From the NCBI GenBank assembly GCA_951406725.2, contig OX597825.1, forward strand, positions 47,740,001 through 47,804,000: 64,000 nucleotides of DNA, read 5' to 3'. The notes beneath the pieces are model-generated. The model saw only the letters and a program-made list of their open reading frames with translations, did no database searches and was not told the DNA's origin. Below, piece after piece: positions 4,895 through 60,222 of the stretch; position 1 is the first letter of the stretch; each line of letters begins with the position of its first letter. The stretch comes from Octopus vulgaris. Taxonomy: Eukaryota. Both the position numbers and the translations under genes were made by a program.

Positions 4895-7800
4895 GGACGT
4901 GATAGAGGCTGTACGTGTTCTTCGCTGCTCTGACTTGTCAGCAGCTGAAGACAGAGAAACGCTAATACAACCCAGCAGGACAATAGAAAAAACAACTGTA
5001 AAAAACTGAAAGATCTACTGTTTTCTGTGAGTAATTTGAATTTCCCTCAAAATAATTTAAGGAACTTACATATCTACAGCTTTGGACACACAAACGAACA
5101 CATAACAAAAAAAAAATTAGAAACATAAATATCTCCAATTTTGTGTCGCCCCTTCTTCCTTGACTATCATAATATGTAAAAATGCCTTTTATTGTAACAA
5201 CACAATTAAATGCACGATAAAAAATTATGGAAGTAAGCACCTGCTAATACATACATACTGCACAACTACAAAAACTGTAAACCACAGCAAAACTTTTAAA
5301 AATAAAAGAAAAATTCCAAAAGAAAAAAAAGAAATTCAGAAAGTCAAATATCCAACAAGGTGAACCTGCTCTTTATCTTACTATTCCCAAAGACTGAAAT
5401 ATCTACAATTCCCTGTAAATATTTTAAATCTCCCTCAAAATAAAATAAGTTAGGAAACTTACATACCTACAGCTATCGAACACACAAACGGTTAGCTTAA
5501 AATTTAAAAAAATCTTTAATATCTACAACAAATGTGCGACAACTTATCCCTGAGTATTCTAAAATGTAAATATCATCCTCCTTTTTATTCTAAGAACACT
5601 ACCATTTCTCTCTGTGCGGTCATACAAAAGACCATATTAAGTAAATCTTAGAACTTTACTAGCCACAACTTGTTTTCTTTTCTTTTAGACTCTCCCTGAG
5701 CATTCGAAAATGTAAACATCCTTCCCATTGCAAAAGTCTTACTGTATTCTCCAACTGGACAGACAAACGAACATCTCAAGAATAGTTAAAATTTTAATAT
5801 ATTACCCAAATACGTAAACACAACTTTTATTGCAACAACACGATTGAATTCAGAAATTCAAAAAATCATCGACGTGAATATCAGATAATATGTGTGTGTA
5901 TGTATACATATATATATATATATATATATATATATATATATATATATATGCGTGTGTGTGTGGGTGGGTGTATACATATTATTGTTGTTGTTTTTCCTAC
6001 CATTAATTCCAAATATAACAAGTTGAATTGCTTCTATTCAAGGCAGCGCTCCCAGTATCCACTTGCAGTAGTAAATATGCTTGACCTCTACTGACTCAAA
6101 GGGTGCGAAGTTGTCCTTTGTCTCTATGGCTGACCTCTCCACCATCTGCTGAATTTATTTATAGACTTATAGAACATGACCTCTTAACCAAATTCTATCC
6201 AACTATTCCCTCAAACAATGGTAGTAGTGGTGGTGATGGTGATAATGATAAAATAATGATAATGATAATAATAATATGCTGCTGCTAATACTTAATACGA
6301 CTAATACTACAACTACTACTACTATTATGATAGCACAGGAATCTGAGGCCCAACTACCACCCTTACCACTACCCCCTCCTACGTTACTGTTGCTGTTGCT
6401 GCAACAACTGCTGCGACTACACATAAAACAATAAAATCATTGATGATGATGATAATGGTGGTGATAATAATAATGGTAGTGATAATAATAATAATAATAA
6501 TAATAATGATAATAATAATAATAATAATAATAATAATAATAATAATAATAATAATAATAACTGACAGATCTTTTTTTCACTTTTTTTCTTATTTTATTTT
6601 CAATTTTTCGAACTAACACAGGCAGAGTGAACTTTTGATAAGTTCAAAAAACACCACAAAAAAATCTGTGTTCGGAGATAAATCTATCAACAAAAATAAA
6701 AACAAACGAATACAGATCTGCTAGCCTTAAGAAGCTACTCCATGAACAATGTTTACATGCAGAGAACACGGAGACGGTGTTGTCGCAAAAAATTAACCCT
6801 AAACTGACGGATCCGTCTCCTAATGTAAGAGTCGAAGCTCGTCATGCCTCACTGTTACAAATTACAAACTGCGATAGTCATCGAGCGGATTACAAAAGAC
6901 CACATACCCGAATATTGAACCAAATTCGGGTTAAAAAATCAGCTACTGGTTCAATTCTTCTCGACACACGGGAGCTGGACGTACCCCACAACCGTTATAT
7001 TCCAACAGATGGCCATCCATGTCCGTCATCAAATAACCGAAAGAAAAAGAATAAAAAATGGTCTAGGCAAGATAATAAAGAAGTACTTGCGGCCTTCTAC
7101 CATGCCATATATTTCCCCACAGATAAATCTAATACTGTACAAACCTACTTAAACTGGAGACAGAAACACCCTGAAGCAAGACCCTACATAGACAGTAACA
7201 AACTTGCCAACGTCAGAAGAAACATTATAACAAACAAATTACTGACTGAAGTAGAGATTGACCAAATTAGACAAGCAGTAACGGATAAAATGAACGAAGC
7301 TGCAGATAATACAGAGGAAATAGTTATAGACCAGCCCAGAGCTGATAAAAATGAAGTAAGGATTGAAAGAGTTAGTATAAGTGATAAGCAAAGTGAAATA
7401 CTCCCTGAACCAATCATAAACACAAAGACAGATGAATATCAAATAGATGAAGAAAGACACACAAATATTGACCCATCAGAACTACATGAGCTAAAAAGTA
7501 AAATCATGATTGAATGGCTGAAAATTAAAGAAACCAGTATGGATGAACGCGATACACTCCCTAAAATCCTCAACTCTAACCAAAACATGAAAATAATTGG
7601 TAAAATCCGGCTGCAATTAAGGATATAATCTCAGCTAATGATGTTGATATCACAGATCTCAACCACCTGTACTATGCATCCGCGAAAATCTCAACGATCC
7701 TATGTGGTGAAAAGATTAGAAAACGGCAACATTCCCACGAAAAGCCTTCTTGGCAAGAGCGTATCCAACAACAAATTAAACTTCTTAGGTCTGACATTGA

Positions 7801-10520
7801 ATATTTTAAAAATCTTAAGGTTGACAAGACTACTAAAACTACAAAAGCCCAAAAATTAATGAAAAAATATAATATGAAAACTATATTTGATATTGATGCC
7901 ACCATAGAAACCATCAAGCAAAAGGTATCTGCTAAAGCTGCCCGCATAGCGAGGTATGAAAAGCGTGTTAGATTCTTCAAGGACAACAACATGTTCAAAA
8001 ATAACCACCAACATTTTTACAGGAAGATAGGGAAAACACCAGTTACTGTAAAGTTTGTGCCATCAAAAGAAGAAGTGCAGGGATTTTGGAATAAAATTTG
8101 GGCAGAAGAAAAAACACACAGCGAAAAGGCCCCCTGGATTGATAGAATATCAACAGAACTGGACTCCTTAGAAGAGCAAAAGTGGGAGGGTGTCAAGGTA
8201 GAAGATATAAGATCTGCTCTCAGGAGGTCGAGCAAATGGAAGTCTCCAGGAAAGGATAAAATCCCTAACTTCTGGTTGAATGCCTTCCCAGAGAGCTATA
8301 AACTGCTAACAGAACTTTACAATGATGTTTTGCAACACCCTAGTAGGATGCCTCCTTGGCTAGTTAATGGTTAACGTTCCTGCTTCCAAAAAGTGAAGAA
8401 ACAAATGAACCAAAAAACTATAGACCCATAACCTGCTTAACAGCTATGTATAAAACGGTAATATCTGTCCTGACGGAGTATACCTATAGTTTTTTTAACA
8501 GACAGCAGCATATTGCCTAATGTACAGAAAGGATGTAAAGATCAGCTACTCATCAATAAGATGATCTTAGAAAATTGTCACAAACGACACAAAAACTTAT
8601 CAATAGCCTGGATAGACTATAAAAAGGCTTTTGATAGCCTACCACATAGCTGGATTAAGAAATGCCTGGAAATATATAAAATAGCACCTACTCTGCGAAA
8701 CTTTTTGTCTGTAAGTATGAGATCATGGAGAACCACACTAACTTTGAACAGTGACAATGAATCTCTAAATGCTGGTGATGTAAAAATTTCATGTGGCATT
8801 TTCCAGGGTGACTCACTATCACCACTCCTCTTCTGTTTAGCCTTAATACCTCTCTCAAAACCGCTCAATGACGCGCAGTACGGATATAAAATGTTTGATA
8901 AAAATATAAATCATCTGCAAAAAATGACCAACAACTCAAGGGCTTACTACCGATTGTTAAACAATTCAGTGATGACATCAGAATGCAATTTGGCCTCGAT
9001 AAATGTGCAAAAGCTACCTTTATCAAAGGAAAAATGACAGAAACATCTAACGTTAACCTTGACCAGCAGAATGTCATAAAAGAATTAGACCCAGCGGAGA
9101 ACTACAAGTACCTAAGCGTAATTGAAGTGGACGGAATAAGGCATCCAGTGATGAAGGAAAGGATCAGGAGAGAATATTATCGCAGAGTAAGAGCAATACT
9201 CAAGACAGAGCTGAATGCGAGAAACAGGATCGAAGCGATCAATGCTTTAGCCATACCAGTCGTGACTTACAGCTTCAATATCGTTAACTGGTCAATTACT
9301 GAAATAAGTAATCTTGACAGAAAAATACGAAAACTGTTGACGATGCATAGAATGCACCACTCTAAGGCAGATACAGAACTACTTTATCTGCCAAGAAAAG
9401 AGGGAGGCCGTGGACTTTTACAACTGGCAGTAACAATGAAGATTGCTACAATTGGCCTAGAAAAACTCTGAGGACTGGATGTTAAAACCTGTCTCAAAAC
9501 ATGAAAACAAGAAAGCATCATACTCAGTAACAAAAGAGGCAAAGGAATATCTAAGTGAATTCCGAATACAACACATTTCGGAATTAGACATACAAGAAAC
9601 AAGCACAGAAAACCCGTGCTCAAATTGCTGCCTTAGATATTCTGAATGATAAATGGCAAGAAAATCTGGCTAAAAACCTGAAACAGAAGGGTTTATCATA
9701 GCAGCTCAGGATCAATGCCTACCTACAAGGAACTACCAAGCCAACATAGTAAAAACGGCTTAACATGTCGTGTATGTCAACAACAAAATGAAACCATTGA
9801 TCATGTGGTCTCCAAGTGCAGTCTTCTTGTGCCTACAGAGTATCTCAACAGGCATGATAGAGCTGCACAATATATTCACTGGGTAATTTGTAAAAAACTG
9901 GACTTGCCCCATGAAAAAAACTGGTGGGAACACAAATCACCTCCAGTGCTTGAAAATGACCACATCTCATTCCTCTGGAACTTCACCATTCAAACTGACA
10001 GAAAGATAGACGCGAATAGGCCAGACATCATATTGAAAGACTTCAGACAAAAATAATCCTCCTCATTGATATGACTGTCCCAATCGATATAAACGTATAT
10101 CATGACCTACCAAAAACTGAGCAAATATAAAGATCTGGAAATAGAAATCAGCAAAATGTGGAAGCTGAAGACTAAAACAATACCTGTCGTCATAGGTGCC
10201 CTGGGAATGATAGCAAAAGGGGCTGATTGCTACCTAACTCAGATACTAGGAAATCCCAAAATGGCAGAAATTCAAAAGATAGTGCTCATGGGAACTGCTC
10301 ATATCCTACGCAAAATACTTTCTATGTAATCTCGAGTTTTAAAATAAACATAATTCTCGTATGGCTTTTTAGATATTCACTAGTACAACACAAAGTACAA
10401 AACCAAATATATAACATACTAGGCATAACACCAACAAGAACTTCCAACTTCTTGTCTCTTGAGGTCTCTGGGTGAGACTTGGAGCCAACGTGTGAAAATG
10501 TAAAGCAAAAGTCAAACATT
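4895..10520 (+). mobile_element. Near full-length R4/Dong-clade REL non-LTR retrotransposon, family A copy 1
   Basis: Bounded by (AAT)n on both sides; long 5' region shared with the copy at 16220-20650; single decayed ORF; 3' end GAGGTCTCTGGGTGAGACTTGGAGCC...GCAAAAGTCAAACA followed by AAT. Confidence 0.9.
6668..10329 (+). pseudogene. Frameshifted family A polyprotein (Myb-like N-terminus, RT, CCHC, REL)
   Basis: [117 protein letters not shown]. The YMDD motif is deleted at about 8915. Confidence 0.9.
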
Positions 10521-10680
10521 GAATAATAATAATAATAATAATAATAATAATAATAATAATAATAATAATAATAATAATAATGATGATGATGATAATGATA
10601 ATAATAACAATAATAATAATCATGATAATAATATTACTAATAATAATAATAATAATAATAATAATAATAATAATAATAAA
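10521..10680. repeat. (AAT)n/(GAT)n microsatellite
   Basis: Direct reading. Confidence 0.95.
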
Positions 10681-59966: not shown

Positions 59967-60018
59967 ATTATTATTATCATTATTATTATTATTATTATTA
60001 TTATTATTATTATTATTA

Positions 60019-60222
60019 TAGACGTCACACAGTACACAATATCGTGAGGTTGTTGAAGGTATTGTATCTACCGGGGGTTTGTACTGTTTGTCAAGTCACA
60101 ACACAAGGACCTCAGACAGACAGTACTTTAAGCAATATGCGTGCAGTCCCAAGTAATGCCGACTTTTGCCATACATCTGGATTGTATGGTATTTCTAAGG
60201 TTTTCAAATGTTTTTTTCAGAT
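60019..60222 (-). mobile_element. 3' end of R4/Dong-like family F
   Basis: KHLKTLEIPYNPDVWQKSALLGTARIL followed by GAGGTCCTTGTGTTGTGACTTGAC and an AAT tail. Confidence 0.7.

What the first reader, a model, noticed from the sequence alone, without database searches (positions are those of the whole stretch)
4895..60222. Multi-family colony of (AAT)n-targeting REL retrotransposons with a strict orientation rule
Seen: about 16 copies or fragments from at least six families with different 3' UTRs. Most end in and/or begin at an (AAT)n tract (family G lacks a clear tract). Every copy with a flanking tract is oriented so that it reads AAT on its sense strand: plus-strand copies at 4.9-10.5 kb and 29.5-31.8 kb lie in AAT, and minus-strand copies at 14.7, 16-21, 23-27.5 and 57-60 kb lie in ATT. 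They form head-to-tail trains of different families. Known: R4-clade elements encode RT plus a C-terminal restriction-like endonuclease, and Bombyx Dong inserts into TAA repeats. Inference: several co-existing lineages share one microsatellite niche, and each insertion splits and regenerates the target so that clusters grow.
Basis: partly seen in the sequence, partly recalled or inferred. Interest (0 to 1): 0.72.

Follow-up and report, generated by a model that had tools for sequence, protein, structure and literature searches.

The report
Dong retrotransposon trains in AAT repeats
Several families of a known kind of jumping gene, plus a short non-coding passenger, sit in AAT repeats facing almost always the same way, and they likely pile up into chains because each new copy lands in the repeat left beside an older one; the targeting is already known, the chains and the passenger are less well described.

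Summary
Real, mostly known biology. The window holds 20 pieces (23.4 kb) from six REL-coding 3'-UTR families and one 557-bp non-coding element. REL ends are about 7 times denser than in 600 kb sampled elsewhere.

AAT is a target, not only a tail. 69 of 85 5'-truncated copies abut sense-strand AAT and 1 abuts ATT (background about 1%). A duplicated locus shows the empty tract beside the filled one. Neighbours in chains differ in age (79-98% identity to young copies), which favours serial insertion. Family A has intact 1,272-aa ORFs (RT, CCHC, R2-like REL fold) with 99.4% identity between copies.

TAA-targeting Dong elements are published for insects, molluscs and cnidarians, and Dong-R4 is known as abundant in octopus. 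This scan noted similar arrays in two other genomes. No named Dong sequence was available for the tree, and allelic empty sites were not seen.

The parts
4895..10521 (+). A1: near full-length family A element, frameshifted. About 1.75-kb 5' UTR with an internal AAT tract (6,464-6,560), then N-terminal domain, RT, CCHC, REL and 3' UTR. AAT on both sides.
   Evidence: (87% to a young copy)
10680..11110 (+). A6: 5'-truncated older family A REL fragment, begins at A1's AAT tail, 3' end lost
   Evidence: 83%
11886..12330 (+). H1: degraded REL 3' end of another family, (AAT)3 tail, no 5' tract; boundaries approximate
14223..14657 (-). A7: internal family A fragment that starts at B1's short tail; 3' end lost
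   Evidence: 90%
14673..14952 (-). B1: short 5'-truncated family B copy, AAT on both sides
   Evidence: 95%
16217..20660 (-). A2: near full-length family A copy with an open 428-aa RT frame (17,283-18,569, RVT_1 E 8e-27) and an internal 5'-UTR tract (19,461-19,539). AAT on both sides.
   Evidence: 89-93%
20754..21226 (-). D1: 5'-truncated family D REL end, AAT on both sides
21342..21549 (-). C2: 3' part of non-coding element C, AAT tail, fused to E1 without a tract
21556..22846 (-). E1: 5' part of another Dong-like family (start of ORF with a KWT-EE motif). Its 5' UTR holds a decayed REL-like fragment. Abuts (ATT)5 then AAT, an exception to the polarity rule.
23150..23870 (-). A3: 5'-truncated family A copy. 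Its AAT tail runs into the 3' end of an oppositely oriented tRNA-like repeat. Fused to B2 without a tract.
   Evidence: (89-92%)
23871..26034 (-). B2: family B RT-to-REL piece, 5' at AAT, 3' end lost
   Evidence: 86-92%
26062..26546 (-). B3: youngest copy in the window, 5'-truncated family B, AAT on both sides
   Evidence: 98%
26677..27522 (-). A4: old family A copy, AAT tail, no 5' tract
   Evidence: 79%
29535..29719 (+). B4: short family B 3' end, AAT on both sides
   Evidence: 92%
29758..30302 (+). C1: complete non-coding element C (about 557 bp in other copies), fixed 5' end, AAT on both sides; likely a passenger of Dong enzymes
30335..31778 (+). B5: 5'-truncated family B copy, AAT on both sides
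   Evidence: 93%
53390..53870 (-). G1: old REL 3' fragment with a decayed tail; relatives at about 70% identity elsewhere often end in AAT; boundaries approximate
54800..57066 (+). Degraded RT-bearing LINE, Tx1-like (label recalled from motifs, no Pfam hit), tail-to-tail with A5; its family mostly ends in ATT; 5' boundary approximate
57183..57755 (-). A5: 5'-truncated family A copy, AAT on both sides; tail meets an AAT/ATT polarity flip at 57,069-57,182
   Evidence: 88%
57825..59965 (-). B6: family B copy with both ends and an internal deletion of about 1.8 kb, AAT on both sides
   Evidence: 83-87%
60018..60222 (-). F1: family F REL end and 3' UTR, AAT tail, no 5' tract

Best explanation
This is a local pile-up of several non-LTR retrotransposon families with a restriction-like endonuclease, likely Dong/R4-clade, that sit in (AAT)n microsatellites in one polarity and likely form chains by inserting one after another into the AAT tracts beside older copies. 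Shown: a single ORF of about 1,270 aa with RT, CCHC knuckle and an R2-like REL fold; AAT at both junctions whatever the 5' truncation point; an empty/filled paralog pair; neighbours of different ages. Inferred from the R2 mechanism: the protein binds (AAT)n and nicks the ATT-reading strand, the RNA's AAT tail pairs there and primes reverse transcription, and the cDNA end anneals to the upstream AAT strand by 1-6 nt of microhomology to prime the second strand. The copy therefore always reads AAT on its sense strand and leaves two tracts where there was one. Element C likely borrows these enzymes.
For: Anatomy: RVT_1 E 3e-27 and 1e-32 for families A and B. Invariant CCHC, RH, PD and K..KY columns across 50 aligned sequences. 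C-terminal model pLDDT 95, best matches all R2 proteins, TM 0.74-0.77. Target: 31 of 40 truncated A and 38 of 45 truncated B copies have sense AAT within 30 nt of the 5' end, 1 of 85 has ATT, background 1.3%. 20 of 20 long-ORF A copies, chosen by ORF length, have AAT on both sides. Unbiased sample: first tract downstream of 21 REL ends was AAT 14, ATT 1, none 5, edge 1, against a background of 226:260 per 5,000. Empty site: L082 has one 694-bp tract; its duplicate L083 (96.4% identical) has the tract split 170 + 13 units by a 769-bp A copy that is 98.3% identical to a young copy. Microhomology of 2 nt or more at 24 of 35 flush 5' junctions, 27% expected. Chains: among 62 young copies, same-orientation Dong or C neighbours upstream in 21 of 52 and downstream in 28 of 59, opposite in 1 and 2; neighbours match the references at 67-100%. 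Literature: PMC7998251 and PMC3812793 (passages).
Against: 10 of 85 truncated copies have no sense AAT within 100 nt of the 5' end, and 7 of 20 window pieces lack it. One family F copy of 24 ends in ATT. Only one empty/filled pair was found and it is paralogous; loss of the copy by recombination between tracts is not excluded, although the copy is younger than the duplication. Most census loci were top BLAST hits, and a few overlap (L040/L104). Microhomology is measured from BLAST ends and may be inflated. No named Dong, R4 or Rex6 protein is in the tree. No biochemistry was done.
Confidence: 0.88

Rival explanations
1. AAT is only a slippage tail of the RNA. Copies insert at random, and 5' AAT is the tail of an upstream copy joined by reverse-transcriptase template jumping in a single event.
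For: All families end in AAT. R2 RT is reported to jump between templates (reference title and one junction note in PMC3774820). Tandem 5'-end duplications in full-length A, B and C copies show re-priming does occur.
Against: For 24 of 52 young copies no known unit was found beyond the 5' tract (partly a limit of the library). Adjacent units differ in age, e.g. A4 79%, B3 98%, B2 86-92%. The paralogous empty site has the tract.
Confidence: 0.04
2. There is no active targeting. Copies survive or gather passively in AAT-rich, gene-poor, low-recombination regions, and the polarity arises because tails expand and copies insert near each other.
For: The window is A+T-rich and full of microsatellites; REL ends are clumped (49 of 60 sampled stretches have none). 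PMC3812793 gives passive accumulation for Waldo-A/B.
Against: Junctions are flush with the tract to the nucleotide in the youngest copies. Polarity at 5' junctions is 69:1, which retention cannot produce. Other abundant microsatellites (AC, AT, ACAT) are not the flanks.
Confidence: 0.04
3. Targeting is real, but this cluster grew mainly by segmental or inverted duplication rather than by independent insertions.
For: A1 and A2 share the same 5' UTR + tract + ORF order in inverted orientation; duplicated loci exist elsewhere (L082/L083, L086/L089).
Against: A1/A2 similarity stops at the element ends, the shared order is the family's own anatomy, and copies have different truncation points and ages.
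Confidence: 0.04

Closest known systems
Dong (R4 clade): Bombyx mori Dong, DongAg, snail DongBg, Darwinula Dong1/2 (PMC3812793 passages; PMC7998251 passages and section 3.3; the 1993 and 2004 original papers were not held)
   Same: Single ORF with RT and REL, N-terminal helical domain without zinc fingers, (TAA)n target, which is reported for most insects, molluscs and cnidarians.
   Different: Here at least six REL families and a non-coding passenger share the target in one genome at roughly 10^5 REL ends (extrapolated) and form mixed chains. No HDV-like 5' ribozyme was found, whereas B. mori Dong has one (PMC3774820).
Octopus LINE/Dong-R4 (PMC13282606, PMC8967140, PMC9115989; passages)
   Same: Abundant Dong-R4 LINEs; 5 recently active families with 1,129 insertions reported in O. 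vulgaris; a full-length Dong ORF in the O. bimaculoides repeat library. The host here looks octopus-like (2.8 Gb, microsatellite-rich; inference).
   Different: The passages read give no target site, polarity, chains or passenger. Whether these are the same families was not checked; their sequences were not compared.
R2 retrotransposons (PDB 9dou, 9nl3, 8gh6)
   Same: C-terminal zinc knuckle + REL fold; the model for target-primed reverse transcription.
   Different: Only distant in sequence (E 2e-29), 28S rDNA target, N-terminal zinc fingers.
R2 SIDEs and LINE-dependent SINEs (recalled; PMC3774820 mentions non-autonomous elements moved by R2)
   Same: Element C is short, non-coding, has a fixed 5' end and shares the target and polarity of the autonomous families.
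   Different: No sequence match to the 5' or 3' parts of the families compared, no Rfam match; partner unknown.

Membership tests
R4/Dong clade | Single long ORF | tested here: met
   One 1,272-aa ATG ORF in L093; stop-free frames of 1,282-1,319 aa in 20 of 20 fetched A copies; 1,137-1,179 aa in 2 of 12 fetched B copies
R4/Dong clade | Non-LTR RT domain | tested here: met
   RVT_1 E 3e-27 (A) and 1e-32 (B)
R4/Dong clade | C-terminal CCHC knuckle and restriction-like endonuclease | tested here: met
   Invariant motifs; model pLDDT 95; the 7 matches at E<0.001 are all R2 proteins, TM 0.69-0.77
R4/Dong clade | N-terminal SANT/Myb-like domain, no N-terminal zinc finger | tested here: inconclusive
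   Conserved four-helix domain with an invariant Trp; Foldseek nothing at E<0.001; VIA Z only 5.0-5.2 to ISWI SANT region, R2 residues 133-215, NgTRF and Zeste, tied with unrelated helical folds. No zinc finger seen by eye in the ORF.
R4/Dong clade | RT phylogeny groups with named R4, Dong or Rex6 | tested here: inconclusive
   No named Dong, R4 or Rex6 among two lists of 120 hits. Proxy only: 38% identity over 1,199 columns to a Pediculus RT, and hits from Acropora, Sitophilus and Spodoptera, species used as R4/Dong in PMC7998251 Fig. 6 (accessions not visible). The tree has no outgroup.
Dong lineage | (TAA)n target in sense polarity | tested here: met
Dong lineage | HDV-like ribozyme at the 5' end (shown for B. 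mori Dong) | tested here: inconclusive
   No Rfam ribozyme hit; own descriptor matched 1 of 42 A, 1 of 7 B and 2 of 37 C ends, against 5 of 75, 0 of 35 and 5 of 75 shuffles; the descriptor had no positive control
Dong lineage | Endonuclease cleaves (TAA)n | not testable with these tools
   needs biochemistry
R2 clade | 28S rDNA target and N-terminal zinc fingers | tested here: not met
   Flanks are AAT; no rRNA in the window; R2 only E 2e-29
SINE / non-autonomous passenger (element C) | Non-coding, fixed 5' end, many dispersed copies with the partner's insertion marks | tested here: met
   Longest stop-free frame 68 aa; 21 of 24 copies have AAT 5' and 21 of 21 complete 3' ends have AAT; unbiased sample 5' AAT 9, none 5, ATT 0
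SINE / non-autonomous passenger (element C) | Pol III small-RNA head, or 3' end shared with a partner LINE | tested here: inconclusive
   No Rfam match; no match to families A, B, D, E, F, G or H; other families exist that were not compared

The most novel reading that the evidence does not exclude
(AAT)n tracts in this genome act as a self-amplifying two-strand niche. Several anciently diverged Dong lineages and a 557-bp non-tRNA passenger insert in one polarity; Tx1-like and tRNA-headed elements end in or abut the same tracts in the other polarity and seed new ones. Chains can fuse into new heritable elements, as family E's 5' UTR suggests: it carries a decayed REL 3' end of another family.
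Probability: 0.35. Interest if true: 0.6.

Novelty: new member of a known kind. Interest (0 to 1): 0.36.

Why it matters
The targeting itself is published for Dong elements, so the core claim is not new. The value is in the detail. A young family with intact ORFs (99.4% identity) makes the biochemistry of microsatellite targeting by a REL enzyme directly testable; PMC3812793 calls the mechanism poorly understood. Roughly 2% of sampled DNA is Dong-like coding sequence, steered into AAT tracts, which helps explain the microsatellite-rich, clumped repeat landscape of this kind of genome. The passenger C and the opposite-polarity elements did not appear in seven paper searches; Repbase and Dfam could not be searched and may already hold them.

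Tried and rejected
Allelic empty sites from public runs: no joint across either tested insertion (L101, L056). The tool skips repeats, contigs break at the tracts, and raw reads covered under 1x, so this is no evidence either way. Named Dong/R4/Rex6 references: two homologue searches and one cluster look-up gave none. ESM Atlas was unavailable. Single-sequence PDB search with the REL domain gave 0 hits; the profile and fold searches then found R2. 5' HDV-like ribozyme: not found. 3' hairpins: folds are predicted in A, B, C, D and F, but z-scores run from +0.2 to -2.9, and C shows almost no variation in 53 ends, so covariation could not be tested. A first census used a family B reference that included flank and gave false exceptions; it was redone. 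A one-sided microhomology null was replaced by a two-sided one. Other candidate duplicate pairs (L049/L050, L046/L047, L086/L089, L023/L029) gave no second empty/filled pair. Treating 4,895-6,460 as a separate family was rejected: it is family A's 5' UTR. Linking E to F or D through shared coding DNA gave nothing interpretable. Target-site duplications cannot be read inside a repeat.
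Full report
Setting. The window is G000:C12:47,740,001-47,804,000 in a 2.8-Gb assembly of 227 contigs. Size and microsatellite load look octopus-like; that is an inference.

Observation. tblastn and self-BLAST, reading of the sequence and a junction table give 20 pieces, 23,424 bp in all. Families by 3' UTR: A (7 pieces), B (6), D, F, G and H (1 each), a 5' half E, and C (2). 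At 5' ends, 13 of 20 abut sense AAT, 1 abuts ATT, 6 have no tract. At 3' ends, 15 of 20 have AAT, G1 has a decayed tail, and 4 have lost the end. Two tracts (6,464-6,560; 19,461-19,539) lie inside A's 5' UTR: the upstream segment runs on into the ORF in other loci and begins every full-length young copy. Two junctions (23,870 and about 21,550) join different families without a tract and look like deletions.

More than chance. In 60 fixed 10-kb stretches across 25 contigs there were 21 REL C-termini, against 15 in the window, about 6.7-fold. Dong-like coding cover was 2.3% against 19.6%. Counts are clumped (49 of 60 stretches empty, variance/mean 2.3); a negative-binomial P is about 0.001, with the caveat that the window was selected. 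Extrapolation gives about 10^5 REL ends genome-wide, so this is a dense spot of a very common repeat.

What the elements are. A search with A's RT gave 144 scored hits with many long frames. The 20 fetched for long frames have stop-free frames of 1,282-1,319 aa and pairwise identity 98.6-99.9%, median 99.4%; one has a 1,272-aa ATG ORF. RVT_1 hits A and B; A and B are 42% identical. The C-terminal 222 aa keep invariant CCHC, RH, PD and K..KY positions across 50 aligned sequences, fold with pLDDT 95 and match R2 structures best (TM 0.74-0.77). The N-terminal domain folds as four helices with only weak SANT/Myb-like matches. R2 is distant in sequence (E 2e-29); the close relatives are unnamed proteins at 45-66% and insect, crustacean and coral RTs. 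In a tree of 23 rows, D groups with unnamed proteins from other sources before it groups with A, and B lies outside that group, so the families are old lineages and not one recent radiation. No named Dong, R4 or Rex6 was available, so clade membership rests on anatomy, target and proxy species.

Target or tail. In loci L002-L122, leaving out the window's own loci and one overlapping duplicate, 58 A and 64 B copies had intact 3' ends; 52 and 63 are followed by AAT. I set aside 16 whose 5' end lay beyond the locus and 21 full-length ones. Of the remaining 85, at 80 distinct breakpoints, 69 have sense AAT within 30 nt, 6 within 31-100 nt, 1 has ATT and 9 none; background is 1.3% (whole window) and 0.4% (32-52 kb). 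All 20 long-ORF A copies have AAT on both sides, in some beyond a tandem 5' duplication, an AAG block or a T run. D: 24 of 24 3' ends in AAT, and 7 of 7 visible truncations within 46 nt of AAT. F: about 20 of 24 AAT-type tails and 1 ATT. G relatives: AAT tails in at least 5 of 19 (read by eye). The unbiased sample gave AAT 14, ATT 1, none 5, edge 1. Loci L082 and L083 are duplicates 26 kb apart, 96.4% identical: L082 has one 694-bp tract, L083 has it split by a 769-bp A copy 98.3% identical to a young copy. The copy looks younger than the duplication, which favours insertion over loss. Public reads did not show an allelic empty site at two loci, for technical reasons. 24 of 35 flush 5' junctions share 2 nt or more with the AAT phase, against 27% expected, consistent with second-strand priming on the upstream tract; BLAST end effects may inflate this.

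Chains. Of 62 young copies, 21 of 52 with a view upstream and 28 of 59 downstream have a same-orientation Dong or C neighbour across the tract; 1 and 2 have an opposite one; 24 and 24 have none found. Neighbours match the references at 67-100%. In the window, A4 (79%), B3 (98%) and B2 (86-92%) are adjacent. This favours serial insertion over template jumping in one event.

Passenger C. It is 557 bp, longest frame 68 aa, with no match to the families compared or to Rfam. 21 of 24 top copies start at the same point right after AAT; 3 follow a duplicated piece of their own 5' part; 21 of 21 complete 3' ends run into AAT. The unbiased sample agrees. It likely uses a Dong enzyme; the partner is unknown.

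Opposite polarity. A degraded LINE at about 54.8-57.07 kb (+), Tx1-like by recalled motifs only, lies tail-to-tail with A5. Its family ends in ATT in 17 of 29 loci, AAT in 3, none in 9 (two pairs are duplicates); its 5' ends were too diverged to score. A tRNA-headed repeat has ATT upstream in 37 of 82 heads and AAT in 1 in Dong-selected loci, and 9 against 1 of 58 in the unbiased sample. Earlier scan notes reported the same opposition in two other genomes and suggest some tRNA-headed repeats here are Penelope ends; I did not check whether that is the same family.

Mechanism. Shown: anatomy, flanks, polarity, one empty/filled pair, mixed ages. Inferred from R2: nick on the ATT strand, priming on the RNA's AAT tail, second-strand priming by microhomology, regeneration of two tracts. 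A 5' ribozyme like that of B. mori Dong was not found.

What is known. PMC3812793 (passages) lists TAA-targeting Dong in silkworm, mosquito and a snail. PMC7998251 (passages and section 3.3) states that (TAA)n is the Dong target in most insects, molluscs and cnidarians and describes the N-terminal Myb-like domain. PMC13282606, PMC8967140 and PMC9115989 (passages) report abundant, partly active Dong-R4 in octopus; the passages read give no target analysis. PMC3774820 (passages) shows the Dong ribozyme. PMC4640811 (passages) notes that some HERO families also target microsatellites, which is why the missing tree matters. The 1993 and 2004 originals were not held. No supplements were read. Seven searches found no paper on mixed chains or the passenger; Repbase and Dfam were not searchable.

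Verdict. Observation confirmed, interpretation supported with corrections. New members of a known kind; interest 0.36.

Noticed in passing
window 21556-22846 (-); L157, L159, L162, L163, L164: Family E's long 5' UTR contains a decayed REL C-terminal fragment (51% to family A residues 1219-1259 in L157). It is present in 5 of 19 loci and in the window, and the adjoining segment in 11 of 19. Possible fossil of a fused chain.
   Followed up: partly
window 29758-30302 (+), 21342-21549 (-): 557-bp non-coding element C with a fixed 5' end, AAT on both sides and no known partner or Rfam match; very abundant (4,967 first-look candidates).
   Followed up: yes
window 54800-57182: Tx1-like LINE tail-to-tail with A5 across an AAT/ATT polarity flip; the family mostly ends in ATT (17 of 29).
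   Followed up: partly
window 52570-54430, 15970-16090, 22984-23107, 28573-28806, 60885-61096: Many tRNA-headed repeats, often in tandem and joined by ATT on their own sense strand; A3's tail runs into one. Could seed Dong targets. May be Penelope-related according to other scan notes.
   Followed up: partly
L094, L098, L111, L114, L116, L146: Tandem 15-25-bp duplications of the element's own 5' end, and short purine-rich extra bases, at full-length 5' junctions of A, B and C.
   Followed up: no
window 24574-24669, 30782-30844, about 58740-58830: Family B carries an internal (GAA)n poly-Glu tract that expands in dead copies.
   Followed up: no
L098, L099, L107 upstream flanks: Further REL families with other 3' UTRs, not present in the window, end in AAT next to young A copies.
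   Followed up: no
3' UTRs of families A and F: A shared short motif forming a predicted bulged hairpin; folding z-scores are not significant on single sequences.
   Followed up: partly
window 4805-4894, 22847-22916, 57069-57182: AAT/ATT polarity flips inside tracts; 22 such flips against 1,358 tracts in the loci held.
   Followed up: partly
window 32653-33351 (+): Degraded open frame with no Pfam hit; probably another retroelement relic, not examined.
   Followed up: no
window 11200-11850: Degraded sequence resembling a mariner-type transposase (recalled resemblance, not tested) between A6 and H1.
   Followed up: no
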